Below are positions 11,976 to 51,280 of a stretch of DNA of 64,000 bases, in pieces. The translations under genes and the position numbers were made by a program. How positions within the stretch are numbered: position 1 is the stretch's first letter; every line of letters starts with the position of its first letter. The DNA lies in the NCBI GenBank assembly GCA_041662665.1, contig JBAZSC010000001.1, forward strand, positions 257,511 through 321,510. Direction: 5' to 3'. This DNA is from Patescibacteria group bacterium (GTDB lineage Bacteria > Patescibacteriota > JABMPQ01 > JAQVVF01). The notes below the pieces were generated by a model, which saw only the letters and a list, made by a program, of their open reading frames with translations, searched no databases and was not told where the DNA came from.

Positions 11976-12049
11976 CGGACTCGACCGGATTCGAACCGGC
12001 GATCTTCGCCGTGACAGGGCGACGTGTTGGGCCTCTACACCACGAGTCC
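11976..12049 (-). tRNA. tRNA-Asp (anticodon GTC)
   Basis: Reverse complement folds as GGACTCG-TG-GTGTAGAGGCCCAACAC-G-TCGCC-CTGTCAC-GGCGA-AGATC-GCCGG-TTCGAAT-CCGGT-CGAGTCC-G. Confidence 0.85.
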
Positions 12050-12060
12050 ATGTTTTATAA

Positions 12061-12134
12061 TAGCAGGGGACGGATTCGAACCGTCGACCGCCACTTTATG
12101 AGTGTGGTGCTCTAACCAACTGAGCTACCCTGCC
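12061..12134 (-). tRNA. tRNA-Met (anticodon CAT); elongator type, or possibly lysidine-modified tRNA-Ile2
   Basis: Reverse complement GGCAGGG-TA-GCTCAGTTGGTTAGAGC...CTCATAA...GACGG-TTCGAAT-CCGTC-CCCTGCT-A. There is a 31/39 A-A mismatch at the loop base. CAT alone cannot separate Met from Ile2. Confidence 0.75.
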
Positions 12135-12184
12135 CAAAAAAATAACAAAATTATAAATTAAAAATAACAAAATTTAGAATCGTA

Positions 12185-12211
12185 AATTTTTCATTTATAA
12201 TTTAGTTATTT
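12185..12211 (+). promoter_or_regulatory. tRNA-associated 24-nt motif, copy 3 (identical to copy 1)
   Basis: ATTTTTCATTTATAATTTAGTTATT lies immediately 3' of the minus-strand initiator tRNA and points toward it on the + strand. This argues against a simple promoter role for this copy. Confidence 0.4.
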
Positions 12212-12222
12212 CTAATTCAATA

Positions 12223-12296
12223 TTGCGGGGGGCGGATTTGAACCGCCGACCTTCAGGTTATGAGCCTGACGAGCTTCCAAGCTGCTCTACCCCGCG
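12223..12296 (-). tRNA. initiator tRNA-fMet (anticodon CAT)
   Basis: Reverse complement CGCGGGGTAGAGCAGCTTGGAAGCTCGTCAGGCTCATAACCTGAAGGTCGGCGGTTCAAATCCGCCCCCCGCAA. It has a C1:A72 mismatch, a TTCAAAT T-loop and near-identity to E. coli tRNA-fMet. Confidence 0.9.
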
Positions 12297-21900: not shown

Positions 21901-22902
21901 TTGCCAGATTCAAATTCCAATATTCAAGAAGAAAGAAGACTATTTTATGTAGCAATGACTCGTGCAAAGAAAAGGTTATTTTTTACATCTGCCAATGATT
22001 ATGGCGGAAAAAGAAAAAAGAAAATTTCTAGATTTTTAGTTGAAATTAAAAAACATTTTGATAAAAATTCCGCGTTTTCTGCGTTAGATTCTGCGTGTTT
22101 CCGCGATAACAATATTTTAACGCAGAATAACGCTGAACCTAACGCAGAAAACGCGAAAAAGAAAATAAGATATTCTTTACCAAGTAAATTTTCATACACT
22201 CAGCTTAAAGCATTTGAAACTTGTCCGCATCAATACCGTTTCCGCCATATTATTGGTTTGCCAAGTTCAGGCGCTTCTTCTCAAAGTTATGGAAAAACAA
22301 TGCATGCAGTTTTGCAAAACTTTTTCGCTGATTTGCAAAAAGGAAAAAGTCCGACAGAAAAAGATTTATTAAGTTATTATGACAGTTTTTGGATCGATGA
22401 TTTTTATCAAGACAAAAAGCACGAACAAAAAAGATTTGAAGAAGGCAAGAAAGCTTTGCAAGAATTTTACAAAATAAATAATAAAAATTTAAAAGCGCCG
22501 TTATTTTTAGAAAAAGGCTTTAACCTAAGAATTAAAGACACATGTCTAAAAGGCCAGATTGATCGCATTGATAAATTAGATGATGGCACAGTTGAGATCG
22601 TTGATTATAAAACAGGCAAATTGCCAAAGAATGAAAAGGAAGTAGAGAAAAATGAGCAATTATTGATTTATTCTTATGCCTGCCAAAAAGTATTAAATTT
22701 AAAACCATCAAAACTAAGCCTTTATTTTATTGACCAAAACAAAAAATATTCTGCTAAACAAAATTCAATTAAAGAAGAAAAGATAATTCAAAAAGTCCAA
22801 GAACTAATTGCTAAAATTAAAGAATCAGAATTTATTGCCAAGCCAGGCTTTGCATGCAAATTTTGTGACTATAAGGATATCTGTGAACATGCTAAACATT
22901 GA
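18925..22902 (+). CDS. UvrD/PcrA-type SF1 helicase fused to a C-terminal RecB/Cas4-like PD-(D/E)xK nuclease with Cys cluster; intein-containing
   Basis: Walker A GAGTGKTT, motif III VVGDDDQ|...|SIYKFRGA split by the intein, and TENYRS. The C-terminal CPHQYRF...IDRIDKL...IVDYKTGK...CKFCDYKDICEH is an AddB/Cas4-like nuclease with four Cys. Confidence 0.8.
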   Translation: MLKDLNTEQLQAVKHETGPLLIVAGAGTGKTTAITKKLAYLILEKKVKPENILALTFTEKAAAEMEERVDKLMPYGYTDLWIETFHGFCDRILKDNALDVGLDPNYKLLTSAEQWMFIKSKIFDFDLKYYRPLGNPNSFISELIKHFSRAKDENILPEDYLKFVKKLSASAPAGASADKETIDKMSEVAKSYKKYQELMVAESQMDFGDLIIETLKLFKKRKNILKKYQKQFQYILVDEFQDTNFAQYQLLQLLAPPQNNLTVVGDDDQCLPPDSKIETKTGIKKINKIKKGELVLSAVGKGHTSYYQVNKVIKNKKNARFLNISTKNGNKITITDNHKMFCFVPLKSDKKYYYVYLMEKRNLGYRLGITNDLATRLRLERGADRIIGIKSFKSEIEARYYETLLSLKYQIPLTCFCFRPGVFMNKELLEKLYQEFDTYKNAERLAKDLKIDLSAHHFALDAVNRGSSLRIKIIIEQCYRKHVSKVRRGILFGPKISHSVIVETSDKKTIETLKKNGFNLRKARKNGFRFKYTDQDFQKVGQIALKLEKITGGILETRFEVGALNIKHRKALMMPAKNLLVGHFLPVLKKDNKEIIYDEIIDIKEKNKTSNVYDLEIEKTHNFIADNIVVHNSIYKFRGASVSNILQFQKDFPKSKKIVLTENYRSVQPILDLAYNSIQLNNPDRLEAKYKINKKLKSQIKSKSDLAINHIHKATYEQEAVDVIKNIINLKQKDKSTWSDFAILVRANSSAEIFINLLSSKKIPYQFIASRGLYSRPEIMDLISYLRVVANFYDNINFYRVLSLPIFKLNSEDIIRLVAYSRRKNLSIFDLACTPSRIVGLNKDSVEKFKVVVELVKKHAKLSLEKNAAEVLLDFLKTSGYLKYLQTNKDLEAEKKILNISLFFKRIQELQENKKLTVPEFIDQLDLMIEAGEDPSPIQLDEGPDSIKILTIHSSKGLEFDNVFVVNMVEGKFPSRNRKDLIELPEKLIKEQLPDSNSNIQEERRLFYVAMTRAKKRLFFTSANDYGGKRKKKISRFLVEIKKHFDKNSAFSALDSACFRDNNILTQNNAEPNAENAKKKIRYSLPSKFSYTQLKAFETCPHQYRFRHIIGLPSSGASSQSYGKTMHAVLQNFFADLQKGKSPTEKDLLSYYDSFWIDDFYQDKKHEQKRFEEGKKALQEFYKINNKNLKAPLFLEKGFNLRIKDTCLKGQIDRIDKLDDGTVEIVDYKTGKLPKNEKEVEKNEQLLIYSYACQKVLNLKPSKLSLYFIDQNKKYSAKQNSIKEEKIIQKVQELIAKIKESEFIAKPGFACKFCDYKDICEHAKH
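19426..19462 (+). repeat. family B nested-hairpin repeat inserted in-frame in the helicase CDS
   Basis: TCCGCCtccGCTCCtgcgGGAGCttcGGCGGAcaaag encodes SASAPAGASADKE. It is architecturally identical to the intergenic 27905-27941 CCCGCCttcGCTCCtcgtcatttGGAGCtacGGCGGG. Confidence 0.55.
19732..20820 (+). mobile_element. intein (363 aa) inserted in helicase motif III, with putative homing-endonuclease domain
   Basis: Begins with Cys (CLPPDSKIETKTG) right after VVGDDDQ and ends VVHN before S of SIYKFRGA, so excision restores the canonical VGDDDQSIYKFRGA. The internal YYYVYLMEKRNLGYRLGITNDLATRL is GIY-YIG-like. Confidence 0.75.
22068..22158 (+). repeat. CTGCGTT-unit palindromic repeat (family A) inserted in-frame in the helicase CDS
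   Basis: ccgCGTTttCTGCGTTagattCTGCGTgtttccgcg...AACGCAGAAtaacgctgaacctAACGCAGAAAACGcg. It translates in-frame as SAFSALDSACFRDNNILTQNNAEPNAENAKK, lying between the helicase and nuclease parts. Confidence 0.65.
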
Positions 22903-25568: not shown

Positions 25569-27902
25569 ATGAAAATATCTGTTAATTGGCTAAAAGACTA
25601 TGTTAAGATTTCTGATCCACAAAAAACTGGAGATGATTTAACTATGTCCATTGCTGAAGTAGAAGAAATCGAAGATCTTTCTCAAAAATTTTATGGCATA
25701 ATCATTGGCGAAGTTATTGAAAAAAAGAAGCATCCAAATGCAGATCGTTTGAATTTAGCAAAAGTAAATATAGGCAAAGAAATTTTAGACATTGTTTGTG
25801 GCGCTCCAAATTTGGAAGAAGGCCAAAAAGTTCCAGTTGCTGTCATTGGCACAAAATTACAAAATGGCATGGTTATCAAACCAGTTGCCATCAGAGGCCA
25901 AAAATCTTTTGGCATGATTTGCTCTGAAGAAGAATTGGGCTTAGCCAAAAAATCAGAAGGCATTTTAGCTTTGGACAAAGGCGCAAAAGTCGGTGAGGAA
26001 TTCAGCAAATACCAGAATTTAGACGATATTATTTTTAATATTGATAACAAATCATTAACTCATCGATCTGACTTATTTTGCCATATTGGTATTGCCAGAG
26101 AAATTGCAGCAGCAGAATCGAAAAAATTATCTTTGCCAAAATTACCAAAAATAAAAAAAGTTAACAAAAAAATTGCAGTTGAAATCAAAGACAAAAATCT
26201 TTGTTTTCGCTACATGGCAATTAAATTAGACGATATTAAAATAGGGGAATCGCCATTGTGGATGCAATCAAGACTAACTTCAGCAGGCATGCGACCAATT
26301 AACAATATTGTTGATATTACTAATTATGTCATGTTGGAATTCGGCCAGCCATTACATGCTTTTGATGCTGATAAAATTGGCGATAAAATTGTAGTTCGCA
26401 AAGCCAAGAAAGGCGAGAGCTTAAAAACAATTGATGCCAAAGTTAGACAGTTAGATTCTGAAATGTTAATTATCGCAGATTCCAAAAAACCAATTGCAGT
26501 TGCTGGTGTAATGGGAGGATTTGATTCTGAAGTTTCCAAAAATACTAAATCAATAATTTTAGAATCAGCTAATTTTTATGCTTATTCAATAAGACAAACA
26601 GCCAGAAAATTAGGTTTGCATTCTGAAGCTGCAACAAGATTTGAAAAAAATATTGCCCCAGAATTAGCTTCTTATGCAATGCTTCGAGCTGTCCAATTAT
26701 TCCAAGAAATTTGTAAAGCTAAAATCGCAAGTTCAGTCAGCGATGTTTATTCCTCAAAACACAAAGCAATCAAAATTAAATTGGATCCAGAAAAAGCAGA
26801 TGAATTTTTAGGCGAGAAGATTCCTTTATCAAAAATCAAATCAATTTTAAAATCATTGGAATTCAAAATTACTGGCACAAAGAATTTAATTGTTGAAGTG
26901 CCATATTTCAGAATGGATATTCATAATCAAGAAGATCTATTTGAAGAAATCGCCAGAATTTATGGTTATGACAATATCAAGCCTCAAGCTTTAATCCAAA
27001 TATTAGAACCAGTTGCCAATTTAGCAGATTTGAAATTAGGAAATAATGCCCGAGATATTTTAGCTGGTTTTGGTTTTTCTGAAACTTACAATTATTCTTT
27101 TGTCTCGCAGAATTTATTGCAAAAATCAGGATTTAATTTTACGCAAAATATAAAAGTCTTGAATCCGCAATCAAAAGATCTGCAATATTTGCGTACTTCG
27201 CTTTTACCAGGTTTATTAGAAAATGTTCGCTTAAATTCCAAAAGATTTGAAAGCATTAAAATTTTTGAAATCGGCCATGTTTATCAAGATATCGAAAAAA
27301 AATATTTATCTGGAATAATTAGCGGTAAAAAAGAAAAAATATTTTATAATCTAAAAGGTGTTTTAGAAGGCTTGTTAATAAAATTAAATATTACTTGCCA
27401 ATTTGCCCAATTAGAAGAAACACCAAAATATTTAATTAACGGCAAATCAATCGAAATAAAGCAAGGACAAAAAATAATTGGCAAAATGGGATTAATTAAT
27501 CAAAACAATCTTGATCAAATGGGAATCAAAAAAATAAAAGTTGCTTTCTTTGAATTAGATATTAATGAATTAGTTGATGCATCAAAAAAAGACAAGAAAT
27601 TTCAGGCTATTCCAAAATTTCCAGAAGTTACGTTAGATCTTGCATTTATCTTAGATAAAACAATTCCTGCAGCAACAATTGAAAGAGAAATTTTAAAAGC
27701 TGGTCATCCATTATTGATAAAAGCAAAATTATTCGATGTCTATACTGGCAAGCCATTACAGTCAAATGAAAGAAATTTAGCCTATCATCTAATTTATCAA
27801 GATCCAAACAAAACTTTGCAGGATCAAGAAGTCAAAATAATTCAACAAAAAATTATCAATCAGCTTAGCCAGAAATTCCAAGCCAAGGTCAGAAAACAAT
27901 AA
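25569..27902 (+). CDS. pheT: phenylalanine--tRNA ligase beta subunit
   Basis: 777 aa. N-terminus MKISVNWLKDYV, tRNA-binding domain GIIIGEVIEKKKHPNADRLNLAKVNIG, plus B3/4, B5 and FDX-ACB regions. Confidence 0.9.
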   Translation: MKISVNWLKDYVKISDPQKTGDDLTMSIAEVEEIEDLSQKFYGIIIGEVIEKKKHPNADRLNLAKVNIGKEILDIVCGAPNLEEGQKVPVAVIGTKLQNGMVIKPVAIRGQKSFGMICSEEELGLAKKSEGILALDKGAKVGEEFSKYQNLDDIIFNIDNKSLTHRSDLFCHIGIAREIAAAESKKLSLPKLPKIKKVNKKIAVEIKDKNLCFRYMAIKLDDIKIGESPLWMQSRLTSAGMRPINNIVDITNYVMLEFGQPLHAFDADKIGDKIVVRKAKKGESLKTIDAKVRQLDSEMLIIADSKKPIAVAGVMGGFDSEVSKNTKSIILESANFYAYSIRQTARKLGLHSEAATRFEKNIAPELASYAMLRAVQLFQEICKAKIASSVSDVYSSKHKAIKIKLDPEKADEFLGEKIPLSKIKSILKSLEFKITGTKNLIVEVPYFRMDIHNQEDLFEEIARIYGYDNIKPQALIQILEPVANLADLKLGNNARDILAGFGFSETYNYSFVSQNLLQKSGFNFTQNIKVLNPQSKDLQYLRTSLLPGLLENVRLNSKRFESIKIFEIGHVYQDIEKKYLSGIISGKKEKIFYNLKGVLEGLLIKLNITCQFAQLEETPKYLINGKSIEIKQGQKIIGKMGLINQNNLDQMGIKKIKVAFFELDINELVDASKKDKKFQAIPKFPEVTLDLAFILDKTIPAATIEREILKAGHPLLIKAKLFDVYTGKPLQSNERNLAYHLIYQDPNKTLQDQEVKIIQQKIINQLSQKFQAKVRKQ

Positions 27903-28066: not shown

Positions 28067-29689
28067 TTATTCTGTCACTGCAATTGATGGAATTTCATCA
28101 GATCCGCGATCTGAAGTCATCTGGAAAAAGATCATCATTGCGAGCGATTGCTTGTCAGAGGTCAGGCTGTGGTAGAATTCACGCCAAGCCTTGCCTTGCT
28201 GTGAAGCATTTCGCATCTCAATGATTTCTTCAATCTGTGTTTGCAATTCTTGCTTTCCGGAAAGCATCTGATTGATGAACGTATCACGACGCTCTTCAAT
28301 CAAATCTTCGACTACAGAAGCAAGATAATCAAAATCCACAACATTCGAATCAACATGAAGACAAAAATCTCGATCGTCAGTATAGACCTCGAGCTCAATC
28401 TCGGGATAATGAGCTCTGATCCTAGCGACGATTTCTGCAGTATCCAAAAGGTCAACGCTCTGGAAGCCGGTGTTATAGATCACGAGCTGATTACGCTCTT
28501 TGTGACCAGTAACAACGAAATCCACGCGCTTTTTTCCAATTGGATACAAATCATTTGGTTCAATGTAAGGAGGCTTGCTGAAAAAGAATCTTGCAGTCTG
28601 TCCATTTACTCTGGACTGACTGAAATCTCCAACAAAATAGCTGATGCCATAACGGTTTACATAGCGACCCTTCTGCGATTCATTCAAGTTATAGCCAAAC
28701 ATTTCTCGAACTGAAAAGAAAGCTTCGATGCAGTAAAAAGCAGCTTGAACAGATTCTGCATAGAAGGCATGATCTCTTGAGCCGCCTGGTGTTACGCGAT
28801 AATTCATCCCTCGCATCAGGTTAGTGATGCCATAGAGATTATTCATCTCGTAATGAGGCCTGCCATCAAAAGGTCTGCCGTTGTCTTTTGCATCAATGAA
28901 ATCAGTCATGATTTGGATATGCTCGAAATTCGGAAGCTTAGTCAAGCGATCATTGTGAGCTCTGAATACCAGTCCAGTTGCAGACCAAGGCTGGTAGTAG
29001 AAAACTCTTCTGCCCTTCTGAAATTCTTCAGTACTGTAAGGGATATATTCATCTCCAATGCCCTTGCAGATAACAAGAGTCTGATCATCATATTCAGGGA
29101 AATGTCCATCATCATCTACGAATTCAACAAATACTTTGTCACGATCGAAAGAGAAAAGTTTGAAACTTTCGATCATTTTGTTCTTTACTGCAGACAGTCG
29201 CTTTGTTCTCAATGAGTTATCATTCAAAACAAAAACAACTCTCTTTGCATCTTCATTTGTTACTGTCTTAAGATTGGCATGATGATCATAATGAAACACT
29301 CTTTGTCCAGCCTTGAACTTTTCAGCAGTCCATGGGTCGAACTTGCATCCTGTATCAAGGTTAATGATCATTACGCGCGATCTTTTGACCGTGTTTCGAG
29401 CTACTGAAATTTCTGACTTTCCATCTGATTCTTCTTCATCATCAACATATGAAAGAAAACGTCCGAGTCCTGCATGGAAAAATCCATATTCAGTGTATGT
29501 CTCTCCGTTTTTCACAAACAACAAAATAATTCTAGCATCCATATTCGACAAACCAAAAGCTCGGCAAAACATGTCAAATGCACCTGCAACATCTCGATCT
29601 GGTGAGACATGTCCAACGAGAAGAATGAAATCCAAATGCAAATAATAAAACAAGTCTTTCAGTGCCATCTCGTCCTCCTTTGGATTCAA
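28067..29689 (-). CDS. DHH-family phosphoesterase-like protein with long uncharacterised C-terminal region; GC-elevated gene
   Basis: N-terminal motifs HLDFILLVGHVSPDRDVAGAFDM (DHH motif I, with PDRD in place of PDGD), VMIINLD and VFHYDHHAN (DHH motif III). A possible degenerate DHHA1 GGSRDH is present. GC is about 45%. AAAGGAGGACGAG lies immediately before the ATG. Confidence 0.45.
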   Translation of the reverse strand: MNPKEDEMALKDLFYYLHLDFILLVGHVSPDRDVAGAFDMFCRAFGLSNMDARIILLFVKNGETYTEYGFFHAGLGRFLSYVDDEEESDGKSEISVARNTVKRSRVMIINLDTGCKFDPWTAEKFKAGQRVFHYDHHANLKTVTNEDAKRVVFVLNDNSLRTKRLSAVKNKMIESFKLFSFDRDKVFVEFVDDDGHFPEYDDQTLVICKGIGDEYIPYSTEEFQKGRRVFYYQPWSATGLVFRAHNDRLTKLPNFEHIQIMTDFIDAKDNGRPFDGRPHYEMNNLYGITNLMRGMNYRVTPGGSRDHAFYAESVQAAFYCIEAFFSVREMFGYNLNESQKGRYVNRYGISYFVGDFSQSRVNGQTARFFFSKPPYIEPNDLYPIGKKRVDFVVTGHKERNQLVIYNTGFQSVDLLDTAEIVARIRAHYPEIELEVYTDDRDFCLHVDSNVVDFDYLASVVEDLIEERRDTFINQMLSGKQELQTQIEEIIEMRNASQQGKAWREFYHSLTSDKQSLAMMIFFQMTSDRGSDEIPSIAVTE

Positions 29690-29905: not shown

Positions 29906-31966
29906 ATGGCTATAAAGAAAGACACCAAAAAAAACGCTCCTAAAAATCCATCAGAAAGCTATGGAGCTTCTTCAATTACAGTTTTAAAAGGCCTTGATCC
30001 TGTCCGCAAACGTCCAGGTATGTATATTGGCGGTACTGGCATTGAAGGCCTTCATCATTTAATTTGGGAAGTTGTAGATAACTCAATTGATGAAGCTATG
30101 GCTGGATATTGTAAAAATATTAAAGTTACTTTATTCGAAGGTAACAAAGTTACAGTTTATGATGATGGCCGTGGTATTCCAGTCGAAATTCACAAAGCTA
30201 CCAAGAAATCAACACTTGAAACTGTCTTGACTGTTTTGCACGCTGGTGGAAAATTCGGTGGTGGCGGTTATAAAGTTTCTGGTGGCTTGCATGGTGTTGG
30301 TGTTTCTGTTGTTAATGCATTATCACAATATTTGAAAGCTGAAGTTACAAGAGATGGTTATCTTTGGGAGCAAGAATATAAACGAGGCAAGGCACAAGGA
30401 AAAATTAAAAAAGTAAAAAAAGCTTCTGGCACTGGCACAGCAATTACTTTTGATCCAGATCCAGAAATTTTTCCAAAGATAGAATTTGATTGGAAAACAA
30501 TTGTTACTCATTTGCGCCAACAAGCTTATTTAACAAAAGGCGTCAAAATTTCCATCACTGATGAAAGAAAAGGACATGAATTAGCGCCAAATATTCCACG
30601 CGCTCTGACTTTTTATTTTGAAGGTGGAATTTTATCATATGTAAAATTTTTAAATCGCACTGAAAAAGTAGTTCATCCAAATCCTTTTTATATTGAAAAA
30701 GCAAAAGGCGATTGTTTGGTAGAAGTAGCGTTGCAATATACTGAAGAGATCAAAGGTATTGAAATGACTTTCGCCAATAATATTTATACTCCAGAAGGTG
30801 GTACTCATCTGATGGGTTTCAGAACTGCTCTAACTCGTGTTATTAATGATTATGCTCGAAAAAATGGTTACCTCAAAGAAAAAGAAGACAATTTAACTGG
30901 TGATGATGTTCGTGAAGGACAGACAGCAGTTGTTTCTCTAAAACTTCCAGAGCCTCAATTTGAAGGCCAAACAAAAGCAAAATTAGGCAATTCCGAAATT
31001 AGGCCAATTGTTAGTTCAATTGTTTATGAATATTTCTCTCAATTCTTAGAAGAGCATCCGCAAGATGCGCGAGCTATTATGGCAAAAACTTTGCTAGCTT
31101 GCAAAGCCAGACTCGCTGCTAAAGCTGCCAAAGAAACAGTAATTAGAAAAGGCATTATGGAAGGTCTGACTTTGCCAGGAAAATTAGCCGATTGTTCATC
31201 AAGAAAACCAGAAGAATCTGAATTATACATTGTTGAGGGCGACTCCGCTGGTGGTTCTGCCAAACAAGGTCGTGATCGAAATTTCCAAGCCATTCTTCCT
31301 CTTCGCGGTAAAATTTTAAATGTCGAAAGAGCAAGAATTGACAAAATGCTAGGTTCAAAAGAAATCAAAGCTTTGATTATTGCTATGGGTATGGGAGTTG
31401 GTGAAGAAAAAGAAATTGAAAAAATGCGTTATCACAGAATAATTATCATGACTGATGCTGATGTTGATGGCGCTCACATCAGAACTTTGCTATTAACTTT
31501 TTTCTATCGCTATTATGCAGAAATAATCGAAAAAGGCTATCTTTATATTGCTCAACCGCCATTATATCGAGTTGAAAAGAATAAAAAAGTCGATTATGCC
31601 TATACTGATCAAGATAAAGAAAGAATCTTAAAAGAAATTGAAAAAACATCTGTTGCCAAAAAAACTAAAAAAAGCAAAATAGAAAAAGCTGGATTTACTG
31701 TTAAAGAATTGGAAACAGGTGAAGAAAATGGTGAAGAAAAAGTCGCTGGCGTTAATATTCAGCGTTACAAAGGTTTGGGTGAAATGAATCCTGAACAATT
31801 ATGGGAAACAACAATGGATCCAAAAAATCGCGTTATGCTTCAAGTTAAAGTAGAGGACGCAGCAAAAGCTGATGAAACTTTTGATATTTTGATGGGCAAT
31901 GAAGTTGAGCCTCGCAAACGTTTTATTCAAACTCATGCTGCCAAAGTTAAAAATTTGGATATCTAA
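29906..31966 (+). CDS. gyrB: DNA gyrase subunit B (type IIA topoisomerase ATPase subunit)
   Basis: GHKL ATPase motifs LHHLIWEVVDNSIDEAMAG and GGLHGVGVSVVNALS. Toprim EGDSAGG and PLRGKILNVE, then C-terminal QRYKGLGEM. Confidence 0.88.
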   Translation: MAIKKDTKKNAPKNPSESYGASSITVLKGLDPVRKRPGMYIGGTGIEGLHHLIWEVVDNSIDEAMAGYCKNIKVTLFEGNKVTVYDDGRGIPVEIHKATKKSTLETVLTVLHAGGKFGGGGYKVSGGLHGVGVSVVNALSQYLKAEVTRDGYLWEQEYKRGKAQGKIKKVKKASGTGTAITFDPDPEIFPKIEFDWKTIVTHLRQQAYLTKGVKISITDERKGHELAPNIPRALTFYFEGGILSYVKFLNRTEKVVHPNPFYIEKAKGDCLVEVALQYTEEIKGIEMTFANNIYTPEGGTHLMGFRTALTRVINDYARKNGYLKEKEDNLTGDDVREGQTAVVSLKLPEPQFEGQTKAKLGNSEIRPIVSSIVYEYFSQFLEEHPQDARAIMAKTLLACKARLAAKAAKETVIRKGIMEGLTLPGKLADCSSRKPEESELYIVEGDSAGGSAKQGRDRNFQAILPLRGKILNVERARIDKMLGSKEIKALIIAMGMGVGEEKEIEKMRYHRIIIMTDADVDGAHIRTLLLTFFYRYYAEIIEKGYLYIAQPPLYRVEKNKKVDYAYTDQDKERILKEIEKTSVAKKTKKSKIEKAGFTVKELETGEENGEEKVAGVNIQRYKGLGEMNPEQLWETTMDPKNRVMLQVKVEDAAKADETFDILMGNEVEPRKRFIQTHAAKVKNLDI

Positions 31967-36388: not shown

Positions 36389-36967
36389 TTAATGTAAGTC
36401 AGCAAGAAATTCTTGAATCGGTTCAAACATAATTTTCAAGCCCTTGAATTCTTCCAAAAATGGTTGAATCTTTTTATATTCTGTCCATAGCGGTTTATAG
36501 AATAAAACATTTCCAGCATCAATCTCTCTTAAACAATAATACAATCTTACAAAAAGTTCACTTGCTCTAAACAGTCGACTTTCGATAGAAGATCCTTTTT
36601 GAATATCATATAGACTTAGCAGTTTTCCTTGAAAATCGATCGGCAAGAATACAACCATTTCTTGGAACTTAACTTTTTCAAGTCTTTCATCTTCTTCTGT
36701 CTTATAAGGCTCTTGAATATCTCCAAAATCATCTGCAGCTTCTCCAAAATCATGGATAGTTGCTAAGTCTGAAAGTATTTCGCCATCAAATTCAATTTCT
36801 GAATCATATTTCCTTACCATCATTTTTACAAGTTGGACAATGACCAAAAGCTTGAGTGTATGTTGAGCAACATTCTCTGGAAATAGACGAGGATCCTTCT
36901 TCCATCTTTGTTCGTCTTGTAAGCCTTGCGCGATTTTCACTAAGCCTTCTTCGATCCGGTGCGGCAT
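36389..36967 (-). CDS. HD-domain 5'-deoxynucleotidase YfbR-like protein
   Basis: ENVAQHTLKLLVIV...LATIHDFGEAADDFGD...RASELFVRLYYCLREIDAGN parallels YfbR (ENVSEHSLQVAMVA...MYHDASEVLTGD...[20 protein letters not shown]). AAAGGAGGAAAGGAAG lies immediately upstream of the ATG. Confidence 0.6.
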   Translation of the reverse strand: MPHRIEEGLVKIAQGLQDEQRWKKDPRLFPENVAQHTLKLLVIVQLVKMMVRKYDSEIEFDGEILSDLATIHDFGEAADDFGDIQEPYKTEEDERLEKVKFQEMVVFLPIDFQGKLLSLYDIQKGSSIESRLFRASELFVRLYYCLREIDAGNVLFYKPLWTEYKKIQPFLEEFKGLKIMFEPIQEFLADLH

Positions 36968-37150
36968 CTTCCTTTCCTCCTTTTCCCTCTTGTTTTTTTC
37001 TTAATTTTTTTTTAAAATATAAAGAACACCTAAATTCCTTTTTCATCAAAATAAATGAACAATCATTTCAAATTAACATTTTTTCGAAAACATATCAACA
37101 ATATTTTTAAATATTTTTCACTTTTAGTTTTTCATTTTTAATTTTAAAAT

Positions 37151-38590
37151 ATGCCAAGTAAAAACAGTTGTCAAATCTATGCGTTAGAAGGATTATCGCC
37201 AGAAGTACGAGCCGTCACTTTTGCCAAGTGCTCGCGTTCAGACAAATCTTTTAGAGAAATTGCTGCCGGTTTAACTGCCGAAAATTCTTCAAAGTTTCAT
37301 GAAAAATGGGTTGTTGGTTATGGCCATTCTTCAGTAGCTGAACACGCGCCAATTTCAATTGCCATGGAAAATATTTCTCTTTTAGCAGTTGAAGCAATTG
37401 AATCAAATAGACTAGCATCATATACTGAAAAATCTTCTCGTTACCAAATTTACGACGAAGATAGAGTTTATTATCCATCTGAATTTAAAGCTGATAAAAC
37501 AGTTGATAAATTATTTAGAGATACAATAAAATTGCAATTTGCTTTGTACAAAAAAAGTGCAAAGCCAGTCCAAGAAATTATCTTTAAAGAAAATCCAAAA
37601 GAAAAAGACGAAGACCAAAAAGGTTACGAAGCTAGAGTTCGTTCCAAATGGATTGATATGTGCCGTTATCTTTTGCCAAATGCTTGTTTTGCAAATTTAG
37701 GCATGACTGCAAATGCAAGAACTTTTGAAAATGCTTTAATGAAATGGTTTTCGAATCCTCTGTCAGAAGTTCAAGATATTGCCAAGCAAGTCAAAAAAGA
37801 AGCCTTGAGAATTACTCCAACATTAGTTAAATATGCTGATCCAAATCAATATTTAATTGATTCCTATAAAATTTTACCTAAAAAAGTAAAAACAATTTTA
37901 GGTGCTGAAAAAAAATATTTAGGCAAAGAAACTTTAGTTGAATTAGTTGATTTTGATAAAGATGTCGAGAATAAAGTTTTAGCTGCAGTTATTTATCAAT
38001 TCTCAAATATTCCATACAAAAAAGCTTATCAAAAAGCAAGAAGTTTAAAGAGAGCAGACAAAGAAAAATTGCTTGATAATATTTTAAAAAGAATCGGCAG
38101 GCATGACAAGCCATTACGAGCAGTTGAACTACCATATTTCACTTTTGATTGTCTAATCGATCAAGGCGCTTACTTTGATTTAAAGAGAAATAGAATTATG
38201 ACTCAGCTTCCTCAATCTGTCACAACAAAACATGGCTATTTTATTCCAAGAGCAATGATTTTAGCAGGTCTTGAAAAAGAGTACAAAGAAGTCATGGAGA
38301 AAACAGACAAAGCCTTTAAAACAATTTCGAAAAAATTTCCAAATGAAGCAGGCTATATTGCAACCAAATCTTTTGCCCGCAGATTTTTAATGAAAATGAA
38401 TTTGCGTGAATTATATTATTTTTGCTATTATCGCGGCGCAAATCCAGGTGGTCATGTTTCTTACCGTTTTGTTGGCACAAAAATGTATGAAATAACAAAC
38501 AAAAAATTTCCGACATTAATGAAATATTTGCCATTTATTTTTGATATGAATAGCAAAGAATTAAATAAATATTTTGAATATATTGATTAA
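37151..38590 (+). CDS. ThyX-like flavin-dependent thymidylate synthase homolog, unusually long (479 aa) with variant catalytic motif
   Basis: GYGHSSVAEHAPISIA...ESNRLASYTEKSSRYQ aligns to the ThyX signature RHR-x7-S-x-RY, but here it reads SNR-x7-S-S-RY. A second half shows ThyX-like ...NARTFENALMKW. tmk follows. Confidence 0.5.
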   Translation: MPSKNSCQIYALEGLSPEVRAVTFAKCSRSDKSFREIAAGLTAENSSKFHEKWVVGYGHSSVAEHAPISIAMENISLLAVEAIESNRLASYTEKSSRYQIYDEDRVYYPSEFKADKTVDKLFRDTIKLQFALYKKSAKPVQEIIFKENPKEKDEDQKGYEARVRSKWIDMCRYLLPNACFANLGMTANARTFENALMKWFSNPLSEVQDIAKQVKKEALRITPTLVKYADPNQYLIDSYKILPKKVKTILGAEKKYLGKETLVELVDFDKDVENKVLAAVIYQFSNIPYKKAYQKARSLKRADKEKLLDNILKRIGRHDKPLRAVELPYFTFDCLIDQGAYFDLKRNRIMTQLPQSVTTKHGYFIPRAMILAGLEKEYKEVMEKTDKAFKTISKKFPNEAGYIATKSFARRFLMKMNLRELYYFCYYRGANPGGHVSYRFVGTKMYEITNKKFPTLMKYLPFIFDMNSKELNKYFEYID

Positions 38591-38595
38591 AAATT

Positions 38596-39228
38596 ATGAA
38601 CAAAAATAGCTTCATTACTAATCCGTACAAAGGTCTATTTATCGCTTTTGAAGGATTGGACGGTTCTGGCCTTTCGACCCAAGCCGATTTATTGAATAAA
38701 TATTTAAACAAACAAGGCTATAAAAGTTTTGCGACAAAAGAGCCGACAAATAATATTATCGGCGGTTTGATTCGTGGTTTATTAACCCATATTTGGAAAG
38801 CGAGTAATGAATGTTCGCAACTTTTATTTACTGCAGATCGTGCTTTGCACTTAGAAAAAGAAATCATTCCAGCCTTAAAAAAGAAAAATATTATTATTAC
38901 TGATCGCTATTTTTTTTCAACTGTTGCATTTGGTTCATTAAATATCAGAGATTTAGATTGGCTTGTTTCATTAAATCAGCATTTCATTTTGCCAGATATT
39001 ATTTTCTTAATTAAAGTTCCGCCAAAAGAATGTGTCAAAAGAATTAAATCATCTAGATTCAGCAAGGAATTATTTGAGGAAGAAATTAAGCTAAAAAAAA
39101 TCTGGCGAACATATAACAAATTAGCCAAGATATTTCCTAATATTTATGTTATTGATGGAAATAGAGACAAGAAAGAAGTTTTTAAGGATGTTTTTGATAT
39201 AGTGGTTAAAAAGCTGAAAAAGAAGTAG
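38596..39228 (+). CDS. tmk: thymidylate kinase
   Basis: P-loop FIAFEGLDGSGLSTQ, DRY motif ITDRYFFS, and a lid region. Length 210 aa. Confidence 0.88.
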   Translation: MNKNSFITNPYKGLFIAFEGLDGSGLSTQADLLNKYLNKQGYKSFATKEPTNNIIGGLIRGLLTHIWKASNECSQLLFTADRALHLEKEIIPALKKKNIIITDRYFFSTVAFGSLNIRDLDWLVSLNQHFILPDIIFLIKVPPKECVKRIKSSRFSKELFEEEIKLKKIWRTYNKLAKIFPNIYVIDGNRDKKEVFKDVFDIVVKKLKKK

Positions 39229-41006: not shown

Positions 41007-41104
41007 GATACACGCGCACCTTAGACAAACCGCCTACGCTCTGCGGAGCTTCCACCTTCGCTTACGCTTCGGTGGACAAGTCGGCGGTCGAGGGAGGAAA
41101 AGGG

Positions 41105-42121
41105 ATGACAGTAGCTCTCGAGAGAGTTAGTCTCGATGGACATGAACAGCATGGACAGACAAATTGGTGGCAGAGCTATACAGTAACTTTCGATTTGCTT
41201 TGCAAAGAATTTGGTCAAGAAAATCTTCCTGCTGGTTTGCCTCCAAGAATTTTTGTTGTTGACAGTGAAGCTGGACGCAGATTTTTGACTGGCCGTCATC
41301 TTTGGGGTTGGCGCAAGATTAAGCTGATTAAGGAAGTTACTCGTTCTTTGGTTCAGCCATTGGTTGATATTTTCAAAGAATCAAATGGCGAAGTAACACA
41401 GTTTGTTCCATTGAGCGGCGCTGATCCAATGAAAATCGGAAAGGCTTTGCATCATGCTTTGATTTATCCATTCACTGTTGCGCCAATGGCAACAGCATAT
41501 ATTGAAGCAGATCGAAAAGAACAGAAAGATGGTAGCTTCAAAGCAAGGGTCAGAAAACCTTTGAAGAAATTCCCGAAACATCCAGTCGCAGTCATTGTTG
41601 ACACATGTTGCGCCTCTGGTTCTACTCTTCAAGAAACTGTCCGAAGAATTATTGACTGGTACAAGACTGATAAGAAGCCATTGCGCAAGATTATTTTCTT
41701 TACTGCCTGCGGATCACTGGAAGCGCTTCAAGGAATCTGGGCATATTGTCAAAGAAGATGCATCGAATTCATTCCAGTTTTTTCTGTTGGTCTTCATCGA
41801 GTATTTGATGAACCTGGAGTTCTTGGCAAGAGATTTACTGATCTTTCGCCAATTTCGGAAACTGCAATAATGCCTGCCTCATTCATTCCATCAGCAAATG
41901 TTTATTTTCAAGAGAAACCAATGTGTGCTGTTGGCGATGTTGGGGACAGCTTGAGTATGAAATTCGAACTTTATCTTTTTGAAACACTTCGCGAGCTTGC
42001 AATCTTAAAAATGGACTTGAACCGTTCTCCTTGGTGTGAAATGAGAAGTCAAATCCCAACAACTGTTTACTTAAAATTGCAGTCTGAACATATTGGAGAA
42101 TTTTTGTACTATCGTCATTGA
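41105..42121 (+). CDS. hypothetical PRTase-fold protein (PRPP-binding loop motif); GC-elevated gene with GC-rich leader
   Basis: VAVIVDTCCASGSTLQETV matches the type I phosphoribosyltransferase PRPP loop. GC is about 48%. GAGGGAGGAAAAGGG precedes the ATG at 41105, preferred over the ORF-track start at 41072. An 80-nt GC-rich leader carries the hairpin CCACCttcgcttacgcttcGGTGG. Confidence 0.45.
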   Translation: MTVALERVSLDGHEQHGQTNWWQSYTVTFDLLCKEFGQENLPAGLPPRIFVVDSEAGRRFLTGRHLWGWRKIKLIKEVTRSLVQPLVDIFKESNGEVTQFVPLSGADPMKIGKALHHALIYPFTVAPMATAYIEADRKEQKDGSFKARVRKPLKKFPKHPVAVIVDTCCASGSTLQETVRRIIDWYKTDKKPLRKIIFFTACGSLEALQGIWAYCQRRCIEFIPVFSVGLHRVFDEPGVLGKRFTDLSPISETAIMPASFIPSANVYFQEKPMCAVGDVGDSLSMKFELYLFETLRELAILKMDLNRSPWCEMRSQIPTTVYLKLQSEHIGEFLYYRH

Positions 42122-49926: not shown

Positions 49927-50033
49927 TTCTACTCAGCTTTAGCTGAGGTTGTGCAACTTTAGTTGCAGTTTAGAACAGCTTTAAACGCACTAAAACTAAA
50001 GTTTTACGAACCCTTGGCTAAAGCTAGGTAGAA
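49927..50033. mobile_element. MITE-like element, copy 2 (same TIRs as 16397-16489, different interior)
   Basis: TTTCTACTCAGCTTTAGCTGAGG ... CCTTGGCTAAAGCTAGGTAGAAA. The interior has GCAACtttaGTTGC and AACAGCTTTAAACgcactaaaactAAAGTTTT hairpins. It overlaps the last 3 codons of folC. Confidence 0.55.
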
Positions 50034-51280
50034 ATCAAAAGTGTTTTATAAGCAGATATAGAATAAATTGATCCGCAAATCAAAATAGGTAGTTTATTTT
50101 TTAAAGCCAATTCCTTGGCTTTTTTGATTGCCAAATTCAATTCCATAATCTGTCCATTTTTATAATATTTTTTTAGCTGTTCTGGTTCAAACATCATATC
50201 AAGATCTAGTTTTGGAAAAATAATCTCTGAAATTATTGGTTTTAAAATTTTTAAATTTTGTTTTGCATCTTTAGTTATCTTAGCAGAAAACAAAACGATC
50301 GCTTTTTTATATTTTAAATCTTTGAAAGTTTTAACTAAAGTTTTAAATCCTCCAGGATTATGAGCAGAATCGATGATAATGGGAAATGGGAAATGAGAAG
50401 TGGGAGGTGTGATCTGAAAACGCATCTGCCATTTTACCTCAAGAAATCCTTTTTTAATTGCGTCTTCAGAAATTTTATACTTTTTTTGCAATTCTTTTAT
50501 TGCCGAGAAAACAATTCCAGCATTTCGCATTTGATGTTCGCCAAGTAACGAAAGCTTATAAATTTTACTTATTTTACCGCTTTTTACTAGTCTCGCTTTT
50601 TTATTTTTGCAAACTTTTTTAATAACATTTAAAGCAGTACCAGAATTAGAAGTAACAACAATAGAATTTTCTTTTATAATTCCAGCTTTTTCTTTAGAAA
50701 TTTTTGCAATTGTATTTCCTAGATATTCTTTATGATCAATTGAAATGTCGGTTATTGCTTCAATGCCTAAATTTAAAACATTTGTCGCATCAAGTCTGCC
50801 ACCCAAACCAACTTCAAAAATAACAAAATCAACTTTCTCTTCTTTAAAATATAAAATAGCAATGCAAGTTAAAATCTCAAACCAAGTTGGCTGATCATTA
50901 ATTTCTTTTTTAACTTGCAAAACATATGGCTTAATTCTTTCAAAATATTTCGCCAATTCTTTTTCTGAAATATCAATATAATCAATTCTAATTCTTTCAG
51001 TCATTTTGAAAATATGTGGAGAAGTAAAAAGACCGCATTTATAGTGAGCTTGAGTTAAAATGCTTTGCAAACTTGCAGAAACAGATCCCTTGCCATTTGT
51101 TCCAGCCACATGCACACCTTTTAAATCTTTTTCTGGATTGCCTAATAATTCCAACAATTTTTCAACTCTTTTCAAATTTAACCAAGTCCTCTTTTTTGGA
51201 GGAGTATCAAAAAGTTTTTCGTATTTTAATAAAATATTTTTCATAAACCTAAAAATAGCATAAAGCGATGATGTTGACAA
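50024..51280 (-). CDS. folC: Mur-ligase family protein, folylpolyglutamate synthase/dihydrofolate synthase-like
   Basis: GTNGKGSVSA P-loop. The MurC/FolC central-domain architecture is present. Length 418 aa. Confidence 0.65.
   Translation of the reverse strand: MSTSSLYAIFRFMKNILLKYEKLFDTPPKKRTWLNLKRVEKLLELLGNPEKDLKGVHVAGTNGKGSVSASLQSILTQAHYKCGLFTSPHIFKMTERIRIDYIDISEKELAKYFERIKPYVLQVKKEINDQPTWFEILTCIAILYFKEEKVDFVIFEVGLGGRLDATNVLNLGIEAITDISIDHKEYLGNTIAKISKEKAGIIKENSIVVTSNSGTALNVIKKVCKNKKARLVKSGKISKIYKLSLLGEHQMRNAGIVFSAIKELQKKYKISEDAIKKGFLEVKWQMRFQITPPTSHFPFPIIIDSAHNPGGFKTLVKTFKDLKYKKAIVLFSAKITKDAKQNLKILKPIISEIIFPKLDLDMMFEPEQLKKYYKNGQIMELNLAIKKAKELALKNKLPILICGSIYSISAYKTLLIST

What the first reader, a model, noticed from the sequence alone, without database searches (positions are those of the whole stretch)
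36389..39228. Nucleotide-metabolism trio with an atypical double-length ThyX homolog whose RHR catalytic motif is replaced
Seen in the sequence: a YfbR-like HD 5'-deoxynucleotidase (minus strand, strong SD) sits divergent from a 479-aa ThyX-like ORF and tmk.

Established knowledge: ThyX proteins are about 220-260 aa and carry RHR-x7-S-x-RY.

Seen in the sequence: the aligned positions here read SNR-LASYTEK-S-S-RY. The first Arg and the His are lost while Ser and RY are kept. The protein is twice the usual length, with a second half that again shows ThyX-like features (NARTFENALMKW).

Inference: the His of RHR contacts the substrate/FAD site. Its loss plus the domain expansion suggests either a fused pseudo-dimer or a flavin-dependent pyrimidine-modifying enzyme with changed chemistry. 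Such enzymes are typical of phage DNA hypermodification pathways, and the flanking dNMP nucleotidase and kinase would fit that context.
Basis: partly seen in the sequence, partly recalled or inferred. Interest (0 to 1): 0.6.

Follow-up and report, generated by a model that had tools for sequence, protein, structure and literature searches.

The report
Domain-duplicated ThyX thymidylate synthase with split motif
The double-length gene is a fused two-copy version of the flavin-dependent thymidylate synthase ThyX; its "missing" catalytic motif sits in the second copy, so it is most likely an ordinary housekeeping dTMP-making enzyme of a small-genome bacterium, not a phage DNA-modification enzyme.

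Summary
The three genes are real: a YfbR-like HD nucleotidase (36389-36967, minus), a 479-aa ThyX-like ORF (37151-38590) and tmk (38596-39228). Both halves of the long ORF are complete ThyX domains (Pfam 96.6 and 54.9 bits; the C-half model matches only ThyX structures).

The RHR motif is not lost. It sits in the C-half (R346-N347-R348; His in 122/132 diverse relatives). The C-half lacks S-x-RY. The N-half keeps S-x-RY and GH-S-EH but never has RHR (0/132). A canonical ThyX site is built from three subunits, and these losses all fall in the same two of four sites. A dimer of the fusion should therefore have two complete sites.

The family is large: at least 587 species genomes and 623 clusters at 50% identity. 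Sources name it FAD-dependent thymidylate synthase. The domain duplication was noted in Chloroflexi in 2009 as uncharacterised.

The context is cellular (L11, L1, GatB, FolC). In related genomes the upstream gene is dUTPase, dCMP deaminase or a Tmk-dUTPase fusion. The HD gene is a lineage-specific occupant of that slot.

The fused pseudo-dimer reading is supported. The hypermodification reading is not. Activity, oligomeric state and site count are inferred, not shown.

The parts
36389..36967 (-). YfbR-like HD-domain 5'-deoxynucleotidase, 192 aa, transcribed divergently from thyX
   Evidence: Pfam PF12917 at 42 bits (cut-off 25.9) and HD_3. Best PDB relative is E. coli YfbR 2paq, E 2.9e-6, with H36, H72-D73 and GD aligned. 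NCBIfam equivalog NF003009 scores only 32 bits against a cut-off of 122. Present in L083 and L065, absent in L081/L082.
36968..37150 (.). 183-nt AT-rich divergent intergenic region. It holds the GGAGG Shine-Dalgarno of the HD gene (+ strand cctcc at 36976-36980).
   Evidence: Sequence read. Promoter-like consensus matches are not above the shuffle expectation.
37151..38590 (+). Tandem (domain-duplicated) ThyX, 479 aa, putative FAD-dependent thymidylate synthase
   Evidence: PF02511 at 147 bits with two stretches. AF2 model pLDDT 92.1, pTM 0.89. PDB fold hits are all ThyX. dN/dS 0.072 against the 90% relative.
37151..37846 (+). N-half ThyX domain (residues 1-232), the 'dUMP/B+C-role' half
   Evidence: The first-half construct tested (residues 1-240) scores PF02511 at 96.6 bits on its own. 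It keeps GHSSVAEH, S95-x-R97-Y98, R172 and R190. It has S85-N86-R87 in place of RHR and K198 in place of R199. dN/dS 0.061.
37322..37345 (+). GHSSVAEH (residues 58-65), equivalent to Mtb H69/S71/E74/H75. This element is provided by subunit B in canonical ThyX.
   Evidence: S61 is conserved in 121/121 close and 131/132 diverse relatives. The subunit role comes from PMC6514825.
37403..37444 (+). SNRLASYTEKSSRY (residues 85-98). RHR is degenerate here (SNR), but the dUMP-binding S-x-RY is intact.
   Evidence: Aligned to Mtb R95-Y108. S95 and R97 are conserved in 132/132 and Y98 in 126/132. RHR occurs in 0/132.
37847..37936 (+). Inter-domain linker (residues 233-262), mostly one long helix
   Evidence: DSSP on the AF2 model gives helix H233-255. 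This is the variable-length region in alignment A1.
37937..38587 (+). C-half ThyX domain (residues 263-479), the 'FAD/A-role' half
   Evidence: The second-half construct tested (residues 241-479) scores PF02511 at 54.9 bits on its own, covering 3-191 of 191 model positions. The C-half modelled alone (residues 256-479) gives pLDDT 89.5, and its top 50 PDB fold hits are all ThyX or the ThyX homolog PolB, TMq 0.55-0.66. dN/dS 0.066.
38111..38128 (+). PLRAVE (residues 321-326). This replaces the GH-S-EH element: P321 sits at the His position and the conserved R323 at the Ser71 position.
   Evidence: Profile alignment to H. pylori ThyX. R323 is conserved in 121/121 and 125/132.
38183..38215 (+). 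KRNRIMTQLPQ (residues 345-355). This is the RHR-motif equivalent, R346-N347-R348. No S-x-RY follows it.
   Evidence: Aligned to Hp R74-H75-R76. R346 is conserved in 132/132 and R348 in 131/132. Position 347 is H in 122, N in 8 and Q in 2. S-x-RY occurs in 0/132.
38399..38434 (+). NLRELYYFCYYR (residues 417-428), equivalent to Mtb N188, R190 and R199
   Evidence: Profile alignment to Mtb ThyX. R428 is conserved in 132/132 and R419 in 124/132.
38596..39228 (+). tmk, dTMP kinase, 210 aa. It starts 5 nt after the thyX stop codon, so it is probably co-transcribed.
   Evidence: TIGR00041 at 149.3 bits (cut-off 83.25) and PF02223 at 146.7 bits. The spacing was checked. thyX-tmk adjacency recurs in related loci.

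Best explanation
The 479-aa ORF is a domain-duplicated flavin-dependent thymidylate synthase (ThyX), and each half is a complete ThyX fold.

The catalytic signature is divided between the halves:
- The C-half alone keeps the FAD-binding R-[H/N]-R (R346-N347-R348) and the uracil-binding Arg (R428, equivalent to Mtb R199).
- The N-half alone keeps the dUMP-binding S-x-RY (S95, R97, Y98), the GH-S-EH element (H59, S61) and R172.

In canonical homotetrameric ThyX each site is built from three subunits. Subunit A gives RHR and R199. Subunit B gives S71 and R190. Subunit C gives S105, R107 and Y108.

The observed losses are exactly those expected if two fused chains assemble into a pseudo-tetramer. 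In it, C-halves play role A and N-halves play roles B and C. That gives two complete active sites and two degenerate ones.

The enzyme is inferred to methylate dUMP to dTMP using CH2H4folate and NAD(P)H. It would feed the dTMP kinase encoded 5 nt downstream.

The His-to-Asn change in RHR is a minority lineage variant of a residue that H-bonds FAD phosphate.

The HD gene is a YfbR-like dNMP nucleotidase. It occupies a variable slot upstream of thyX. In related genomes that slot holds dUTPase, dCMP deaminase or a Tmk-dUTPase fusion.

Shown here: the domain architecture, the fold, the residue distribution, its conservation, purifying selection and the gene context. Inferred: the oligomeric arrangement, the number of live sites and the catalytic activity.
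For: - Both halves pass Pfam Thy1 independently, at 96.6 and 54.9 bits against a cut-off of 24.8.
- The AF2 full-length model has pLDDT 92.1 and pTM 0.89. The C-half alone has pLDDT 89.5, and its top 50 PDB fold hits are all ThyX or the ThyX homolog PolB.
- Residues were mapped by profile alignment to Mtb and H. pylori ThyX.
- Conservation in 121 close relatives and 132 diverse representatives: N-half RHR 0/132, S..R 132/132; C-half R-x-R 131/132 (H in 122, N in 8, Q in 2), S-x-RY 0/132, R428 132/132.
- The subunit origin of each residue is taken from PMC6514825 section 3.1.
- The same split is seen in phage tandem ThyX at 21-27% identity.
- dN/dS is 0.061 for the N-half and 0.066 for the C-half.
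- Context in the window: tmk lies 5 nt downstream, and FolC is present.
- Context elsewhere: dUTPase, dCMP deaminase or Tmk-dUTPase lies immediately upstream in related loci. dCMP deaminase and dUTPase lie next to the tandem thyX of phage Tunturi_5.
- Non-Dehalococcoides Chloroflexi are reported to have only this duplicated ThyX and no ThyA (PMC3224940).
- Sources name the family FAD-dependent thymidylate synthase.
Against: - No biochemical or structural study of any tandem ThyX was found. The 2009 paper calls it uncharacterised, and the PDB holds no tandem ThyX.
- The NCBIfam equivalog TIGR02170 scores 62.1, below its cut-off of 87.9.
- The pseudo-tetramer arrangement was not modelled.
- Positions lining the supposedly dead sites remain conserved: R87 125/132, K198 109/132, R323 125/132, R419 124/132. 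Those sites may therefore not be inert.
- Only 64 kb of the genome was seen. A second thymidylate synthase elsewhere cannot be excluded.
- The Arg equivalent to Mtb R87 is Leu here, though that position varies across the family.
Confidence: 0.75

Rival explanations
1. The two 'degenerate' sites are not dead but repurposed. The tandem ThyX is still a thymidylate synthase, but its second pair of pockets binds another anionic ligand, such as NAD(P)H, a second flavin/ADP moiety or a regulatory nucleotide. The enzyme would then be functionally asymmetric.
For: Residues that would line the degenerate pockets are strongly conserved. These are R87, K/R198, R323 (an Arg replacing Ser71), R419, and T351/Q355 of the C-half loop. 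Both halves show equally strong purifying selection. In Mtb ThyX, NADP+ can occupy the FAD site (PMC6514825).
Against: The conserved arginines could be structural, for example salt bridges at the pseudo-dimer interface. N86 and Q352 are much less conserved in the diverse set. The TQxxQ loop is not kept in phage Ma-LMM01. There is no direct evidence for any ligand.
Confidence: 0.15
2. The protein is a flavin-dependent pyrimidine-modifying enzyme with altered chemistry, part of a (phage-type) DNA hypermodification pathway together with the nucleotidase and the kinase.
For: Neither domain alone has the full RHR-x7-S-x-RY motif. It falls below the TIGR02170 equivalog cut-off. Tandem ThyX also occurs in some phages. 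ThyX-fold enzymes with other specificities exist, for example PolB UMP/dUMP methylase 4p5b, which appears in the fold hits.
Against: The context is a cellular housekeeping neighbourhood, conserved beside L11/L1/tmk/gatB. All canonical FAD- and dUMP-binding residues are present in trans. Neighbours in relatives and in phage Tunturi_5 are dUTPase, dCMP deaminase and Tmk, the standard dTMP route. It is reported as the only thymidylate synthase in many Chloroflexi. No glycosyl-, amino- or hydroxymethyl-transfer genes were seen in the ORFs scanned.
Confidence: 0.04
3. The enzyme methylates a different nucleotide (UMP, dCMP or an RNA/tRNA uridine) rather than dUMP, in the manner of PolB or other ThyX-fold paralogues.
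For: L77 replaces the Arg equivalent to the dUMP-phosphate ligand Mtb R87. K198 replaces R199 in the N-half.
Against: Position 77 is variable across the whole tandem family (I 61, R 33, N 13 and others). The uracil/phosphate ligands S95, R97, Y98, R172 and R428 are invariant. Operon linkage is to dTMP kinase, and to dUTPase and dCMP deaminase in relatives.
Confidence: 0.04
4. One half is a decaying remnant, or the whole protein is a non-catalytic pseudoenzyme.
For: Each half on its own lacks part of the signature motif.
Against: dN/dS is 0.06-0.07 in both halves. There are dozens of invariant residues in both halves across relatives down to 30% identity. The losses are complementary, not random.
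Confidence: 0.02

Closest known systems
Canonical homotetrameric ThyX / FDTS (T. maritima TM0449 1O26, M. tuberculosis Rv2754c 3GWC, H. pylori 3N3Y, PBCV-1 A674R 4FZB)
   Same: Same fold in both halves (TMt about 0.68-0.75). Same Pfam family. The same set of FAD- and dUMP-binding residues. Presumably the same reaction (dUMP + CH2H4folate + NADPH -> dTMP).
   Different: Canonical ThyX is one domain of about 220-260 aa, and each subunit carries the full RHR-x7-S-x-RY. It has four equivalent sites. Here two domains are fused, the motif is split between them, and two complete sites per four domains are predicted. The His of RHR is Asn in this lineage.
Domain-duplicated ThyX of Chloroflexi, noted by Valas & Bourne 2009 (PMC3224940)
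   Same: Same architecture and the same family. Anaerolineae/Chloroflexota proteins are 42-48% identical over the full length. The window protein is a Patescibacteria-type member.
   Different: That paper only notes the duplication and says it is uncharacterised. The complementary split of the active-site residues was not described in any paper I could search.
Phage tandem ThyX (Tunturiibacter phage Tunturi_5 gp50, 518 aa; Microcystis phage Ma-LMM01 gp020, 491 aa; Mvi-JY20)
   Same: Two ThyX domains with the same N-half S-x-RY / C-half RHR split. They are annotated thymidylate synthase. Tunturi_5 gp50 is flanked by dCMP deaminase and dUTPase.
   Different: Only 21-27% identity, in a viral context. 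Ma-LMM01 has lost even the third Arg in the N-half.
PolB UMP/dUMP C5-methylase of Streptomyces cacaoi (4P5B)
   Same: ThyX fold. It appears among the fold hits (rank 25).
   Different: It is single-domain and belongs to a nucleoside-antibiotic pathway. There is no evidence here for altered substrate specificity or a biosynthetic cluster.
E. coli YfbR 5'-deoxynucleotidase (2PAQ), for the HD gene
   Same: HD-domain fold family with the H..HD..D metal ligands aligned. E 2.9e-6. It passes the Pfam YfbR-like cut-off.
   Different: Well below the NCBIfam equivalog cut-off (32 against 122 bits). Substrate specificity is untested.

Membership tests
ThyX / FDTS (Pfam Thy1 PF02511) | Thy1 domain above the Pfam gathering score | tested here: met
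   The whole protein scores 147.1 bits. The N-half alone scores 96.6 and the C-half alone 54.9, against a cut-off of 24.8.
ThyX / FDTS | NCBIfam equivalog TIGR02170 (thyX) above its curated cut-off | tested here: not met
   62.1 bits against a cut-off of 87.9. The model is built on single-domain ThyX.
ThyX / FDTS | ThyX signature RHR-x7-S-x-RY within one domain | tested here: not met
   The N-half reads SNR-x7-S-x-RY. The C-half reads RNR-x7-S-V-TT in this protein, and the Ser there is not conserved (position 356 is P/L/E/D and others in relatives). Neither domain has the whole motif. The motif is complete only when the two halves are combined.
ThyX / FDTS | Full set of FAD ligands (RHR, Ser71/His69 element, Arg190) and dUMP ligands (Ser105, Arg107, Tyr108, Arg199, Arg172), Mtb numbering | tested here: met
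   All are present somewhere in the chain and are conserved. From the C-half: R346, N/H347, R348 and R428. From the N-half: H59, S61, S95, R97, Y98, R172 and R190. His96 is Asn in this lineage.
ThyX / FDTS | ThyX three-dimensional fold | tested here: met
   For the full-length model, the listed PDB fold hits are all ThyX. For the C-half model alone, the top 50 hits are all ThyX or the ThyX homolog PolB, TMq 0.55-0.66.
ThyX / FDTS | Tetrameric (D2) assembly with active sites at three-subunit interfaces | not testable with these tools
   No multimer prediction is offered, model coordinates are not exposed, and AFDB is unavailable. The two-site pseudo-tetramer is inferred from residue bookkeeping against PMC6514825.
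ThyX / FDTS | FAD-dependent conversion of dUMP to dTMP; complementation of thyA deficiency | not testable with these tools
   No experimental report on a tandem ThyX was found.
ThyX / FDTS | Genomic association with dTMP-pathway genes | tested here: met
   tmk lies 5 nt downstream. dUTPase, dCMP deaminase or Tmk-dUTPase lies upstream in related loci. 17 of 80 loci have such neighbours within 1.5 kb. The same association is seen in phage Tunturi_5.
ThyX / FDTS | Sole thymidylate synthase of the genome (no thyA) | tested here: inconclusive
   No thyA, folA or second thyX was found among the ORFs of at least 120 aa that were scanned; three ORFs of 125-130 aa and the presumed PheT (25569-27902) were not scanned. 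Only 64 kb was available. The literature says the duplicated ThyX is the only thymidylate synthase in most Chloroflexi.
Phage DNA hypermodification pathway | Viral genome context and accompanying modification enzymes (hydroxymethylase, kinase on hmdU, glycosyl-/amino-transferases) | tested here: not met
   The window encodes ribosomal proteins, aminoacyl-tRNA synthetases, GyrB, DnaE and FolC. No phage structural or modification genes were seen.
YfbR-like HD 5'-deoxynucleotidase | Pfam PF12917 above cut-off and conserved H..HD..D metal ligands | tested here: met
   42 bits against a cut-off of 25.9. The alignment to YfbR 2paq conserves H36, H72-D73 and GD. The NCBIfam equivalog is not reached (32 against 122 bits).
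dTMP kinase (Tmk) | TIGR00041 equivalog above cut-off | tested here: met
   149.3 bits against a cut-off of 83.25.

The most novel reading that the evidence does not exclude
The second pair of pockets in the tandem ThyX pseudo-tetramer is not a fossil. It would be a conserved, repurposed ligand site lined by R87, K198, R323 and R419, for example a dedicated NAD(P)H or regulatory-nucleotide site. These enzymes would then spatially separate functions that canonical ThyX performs in one shared pocket. Such an enzyme would be a natural tool for the long-unresolved question of where and how NADPH and folate bind in ThyX.
Probability: 0.15. Interest if true: 0.6.

Novelty: new member of a known kind. 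Interest (0 to 1): 0.3.

Why it matters
The finding itself is an ordinary housekeeping enzyme read through a single-domain motif. The RHR is not lost; it has moved to the other domain.

The subfamily it belongs to still deserves attention. It is very widespread: Chloroflexota, Patescibacteria, Armatimonadota, Dependentiae, some archaeal MAGs, some phages and one glaucophyte alga transcriptome. It is reported to be the only thymidylate synthase in many Chloroflexi. Yet it appears never to have been characterised biochemically or structurally.

The strict complementary split of the active-site residues is a natural confirmation that ThyX sites are built from three subunits. It predicts an enzyme with half the sites per domain. 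It also offers a clean system for dissecting which subunit contributes what, which is relevant to ThyX inhibitor design.

For annotation, motif-based or equivalog-based filters (TIGR02170) will under-call these proteins or flag them as atypical.

Tried and rejected
- The AFDB Foldseek search, meant to find named full-length tandem relatives, could not run because the library is not installed.
- Model coordinates are not exposed. I could not superpose the pseudo-dimer on the T. maritima or Mtb tetramer, or decide which interface is intramolecular.
- Pairwise MAFFT of the two halves is unreliable at 23% identity. I replaced it with profile-to-reference alignments.
- My first motif count on the diverse representatives was wrong, because hmmalign --trim shifted the numbering. 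I redid it with a sanity check.
- Literature searches for a tandem, fused or heteromeric ThyX returned nothing relevant, except Valas & Bourne 2009.
- Griffin et al. 2005 (chlamydial ThyX) and Leduc et al. 2004 (three-monomer active site) are not in the library. My recollection that chlamydial ThyX is about 529 aa, and therefore possibly tandem, remains untested.
- Rfam found no rRNA with which to name the organism.
- A pseudogene or decay explanation was considered and rejected, on dN/dS and conservation.
- A phage-island explanation was considered and rejected, on context and uniform GC (0.317 for thyX against about 0.31 for the window).


Full report
**1. What is at the coordinates**

The ORF list confirms three genes:
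- a 192-aa ORF on the minus strand (36389-36967);
- a 479-aa ORF on the plus strand (37151-38590);
- a 210-aa ORF (38596-39228) that starts 5 nt after the previous stop codon.

Family assignments:
- The first ORF is YfbR-like (PF12917, 42 bits against a cut-off of 25.9). Its best solved relative is E. coli YfbR, with the H..HD..GD ligands aligned. A GGAGG lies 8 nt upstream of its ATG.
- The third ORF is dTMP kinase (TIGR00041, 149 bits against a cut-off of 83).
- The long ORF hits Thy1/PF02511 with two stretches. When the two halves are scanned separately, each passes the gathering score (96.6 and 54.9 bits against 24.8). The C-half covers profile positions 3-191 of 191.

**2. The genome is cellular, not viral**

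The surrounding genes are:
- NusG, L11, L1, GatB, MiaA and MiaB;
- PheS, ThrRS, GyrB and DnaE;
- pyruvate kinase, a PEP-utilising enzyme, PilM, a UvrD/PD-(D/E)XK helicase-nuclease with an intein, and FolC.

GC content is about 31% throughout, and 31.7% for thyX. The closest named relatives of the ThyX are Candidatus Falkowbacteria and Magasanikbacteria. The source is therefore most likely a Patescibacteria (CPR) bacterium.

**3. Both halves are ThyX folds**
- The AlphaFold2 full-length model is confident (pLDDT 92.1, pTM 0.89). It repeats the same strand/helix order twice.
- Foldseek against the PDB returns only single-domain ThyX chains, covering about half of the query (TMq about 0.36, TMt about 0.68). 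No tandem ThyX has been solved.
- Residues 256-479 modelled alone give pLDDT 89.5. The top 50 PDB hits are all ThyX: PBCV-1, T. maritima, M. tuberculosis, T. thermophilus and C. glutamicum, plus the ThyX-fold methylase PolB. TMq is 0.55-0.66 over about 220 columns.

**4. The motif is split, not lost**

That alignment is correct. The second half, however, contains KRNRIMTQ (345-352). Profile alignment places this on H. pylori R74-H75-R76.

It belongs to the first half.

Residue counts were made over 121 close relatives and 132 diverse full-length representatives at 29-51% identity.
- The N-half never has RHR (0/132). It always has S95 and R97 (132/132), and Y98 in 126/132. It also keeps S61 (131/132), R172 (130/132) and R190 (125/132). 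Lys stands in place of R199 (109/132).
- The C-half always has R346 (132/132), and R348 in 131/132. Position 347 is His in 122, Asn in 8 and Gln in 2. R428 (= R199) is in 132/132 and R419 (= R190) in 124/132.
- The C-half never has S-x-RY (0/132). It has Pro and Arg where the GH-S element would be (R323 in 125/132). It lacks the R172 equivalent.

The window's RNR is therefore a minority variant of an intact RHR. 68 of 121 close homologs carry RHR.

The same split is present in phage tandem ThyX at only 21-27% identity: Tunturi_5, Ma-LMM01 and Mvi-JY20.

**5. Why the split makes mechanistic sense**

The structural review of FDTS (PMC6514825, section 3.1) describes each active site of the homotetramer as built from three subunits:
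- subunit A gives RHR (binding FAD phosphates and the isoalloxazine) and R199;
- subunit B gives S71 and R190 (FAD);
- subunit C gives R87, S105, R107 and Y108 (dUMP).

Assign the C-half to role A and the N-halves to roles B and C. Every residue of a complete site is then present.

By D2 symmetry, every loss falls into the other two sites. Those losses are RHR and R199 in the N-half, and S71, S-x-RY and R172 in the C-half.

The invariance of GHSSVAEH in the N-half argues that the N-half, and not the C-half, supplies role B.

The inference is that a homodimer of the fusion mimics the tetramer with two complete and two degenerate sites. This step is inferred. I could not model the dimer or superpose coordinates.

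**6. Both halves are under selection**

Against the 90%-identical relative (L083), dN/dS is 0.061 for the N-half and 0.066 for the C-half. Neither half is decaying.

Several residues that would line the 'degenerate' pockets are themselves conserved: R87, K198, R323 and R419. This leaves open the possibility that those pockets have a function. That possibility is the novel case.

**7. Function from context**
- In the window, thyX is followed directly by tmk.
- The L11-L1...thyX-tmk-gatB arrangement recurs in about ten Patescibacteria-type loci.
- The gene immediately upstream of the tandem thyX in those loci is:
  - dUTPase in L010, L012 and L018;
  - a Tmk-dUTPase fusion in L002 and L005;
  - dCMP deaminase in L009;
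  - a YfbR-like HD in L065;
  - NUDIX in L015;
  - an AAA_18 protein in L037, possibly a nucleotide kinase.
- 17 of 80 loci have such neighbours within 1.5 kb.
- In phage Tunturi_5 the tandem ThyX lies beside dCMP deaminase and dUTPase.
- Enzymes that make dUMP lie upstream, and the enzyme that consumes dTMP lies downstream. That is the expected signature of a bona fide thymidylate synthase.
- FolC in the window (TIGR01499, 342 bits) shows that the organism handles folates.
- The HD gene is present in the 90% relative and in L065. It is absent from the 73% relative, where L1 abuts thyX. It is therefore a variable occupant of this slot, not a fixed member of a trio.

**8. How widespread and how well known**
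- The word-indexed search found 6,509 proteins at E <= 0.001, among 8,000 candidates scored. The best 120 are all 451-499 aa. Those that carry a source name are called FAD-dependent thymidylate synthase or thymidylate synthase ThyX.
- The species-genome scan found at least 587 genomes. These are mostly Anaerolineae/Chloroflexota and Patescibacteria, plus a few archaeal MAGs.
- The exhaustive search of 1.84 billion representatives found 623 clusters at E <= 1e-30. They include Armatimonadota, Dependentiae, Woykebacteria and a glaucophyte transcriptome.
[quoted passage not shown] - No other paper in the library describes a tandem, fused or heteromeric ThyX.

**9. Verdict**

The protein is a member of a large, database-annotated but experimentally uncharacterised subfamily of domain-duplicated ThyX.

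The fused pseudo-dimer reading is supported. The changed-chemistry and phage-hypermodification reading is not.

The complementary division of the active-site residues between the two domains may not have been reported before; I found no description of it in the searchable literature. It is a tidy, testable structural prediction (one FAD per chain, two sites per dimer). It refines a known kind of enzyme and does not define a new one.

Interest is 0.3. Novelty is a new member of a known kind.

Noticed in passing
window 18925-22902 (+): A 1325-aa UvrD-helicase / PD-(D/E)XK nuclease (AddA-like) carries an intein (Pfam Intein_splicing and Hint, residues about 268-632). In the 90% relative L083 the GyrB gene carries an intein (1119 aa), whereas the window's GyrB (29906-31966, 686 aa) does not. 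Intein content therefore differs between close relatives.
   Followed up: no
L002:4711-5952 and L005:4799-5860: Fused Tmk-dUTPase proteins (413 and 353 aa; Pfam Thymidylate_kin plus dUTPase) are encoded immediately upstream of the tandem thyX in two MAGs. The fusion joins the enzyme that makes the ThyX substrate to the enzyme that consumes its product.
   Followed up: partly
window 12406-14007 (-) and 28067-29689 (-): Two minus-strand ORFs lie in local GC peaks (0.42 and 0.39, against about 0.31 background). The first is a PepT/M20-like peptidase of 533 aa, below the equivalog cut-offs. The second (540 aa) has no Pfam or NCBIfam hit. They may be horizontally acquired.
   Followed up: partly
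window 56678-58567 and 58660-60591 (+): A 629-aa protein with an AAA_5 (dynein/McrB-like) domain is followed by a 643-aa protein with no family hit. This could be a McrBC-like or other two-gene NTPase system.
   Followed up: no
window 41072-42121 (+): A 349-aa ORF (GTG start, local GC about 0.38) lies between gatB and miaA and has no Pfam or NCBIfam hit. An unannotated gene of similar size (342 aa) sits at the same position in L083. Sequence similarity between the two was not tested.
   Followed up: no
P0149: A 530-aa tandem ThyX representative comes from a eukaryotic transcriptome (the glaucophyte Gloeochaete wittrockiana, MMETSP0308 / EukProt). It may be a eukaryotic or plastid-derived copy, or bacterial contamination.
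   Followed up: no
L002, L005, L009, L010, L012, L041: MAGs titled 'uncultured Gammaproteobacteria bacterium' share the Patescibacteria-type L11-L1...thyX-tmk-gatB synteny and have 44-47% identical tandem ThyX. Their taxonomic labels look unreliable.
   Followed up: no
window 50024-51280 (-): A FolC homolog (TIGR01499, 342 bits against a cut-off of 162.65) is present, but no folA was seen in the ORFs scanned. This fits ThyX organisms, which do not oxidise tetrahydrofolate. Only 64 kb was examined.
   Followed up: partly
window residues 96, 101, 347, 415, 423 of the ThyX (37151-38590): In the close family, His-to-Asn at the C-half RHR co-varies with four other positions (T96S, F101Y, T415K, H423Y) at more than 90% in each group. 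This may be a lineage signature or a compensatory set around the FAD site.
   Followed up: no
window 11976-12296 (-), 7276-7360 and 8249-8335 (+): Five tRNA genes, three of them clustered on the minus strand. There are no rRNA or other Rfam families in the window.
   Followed up: no
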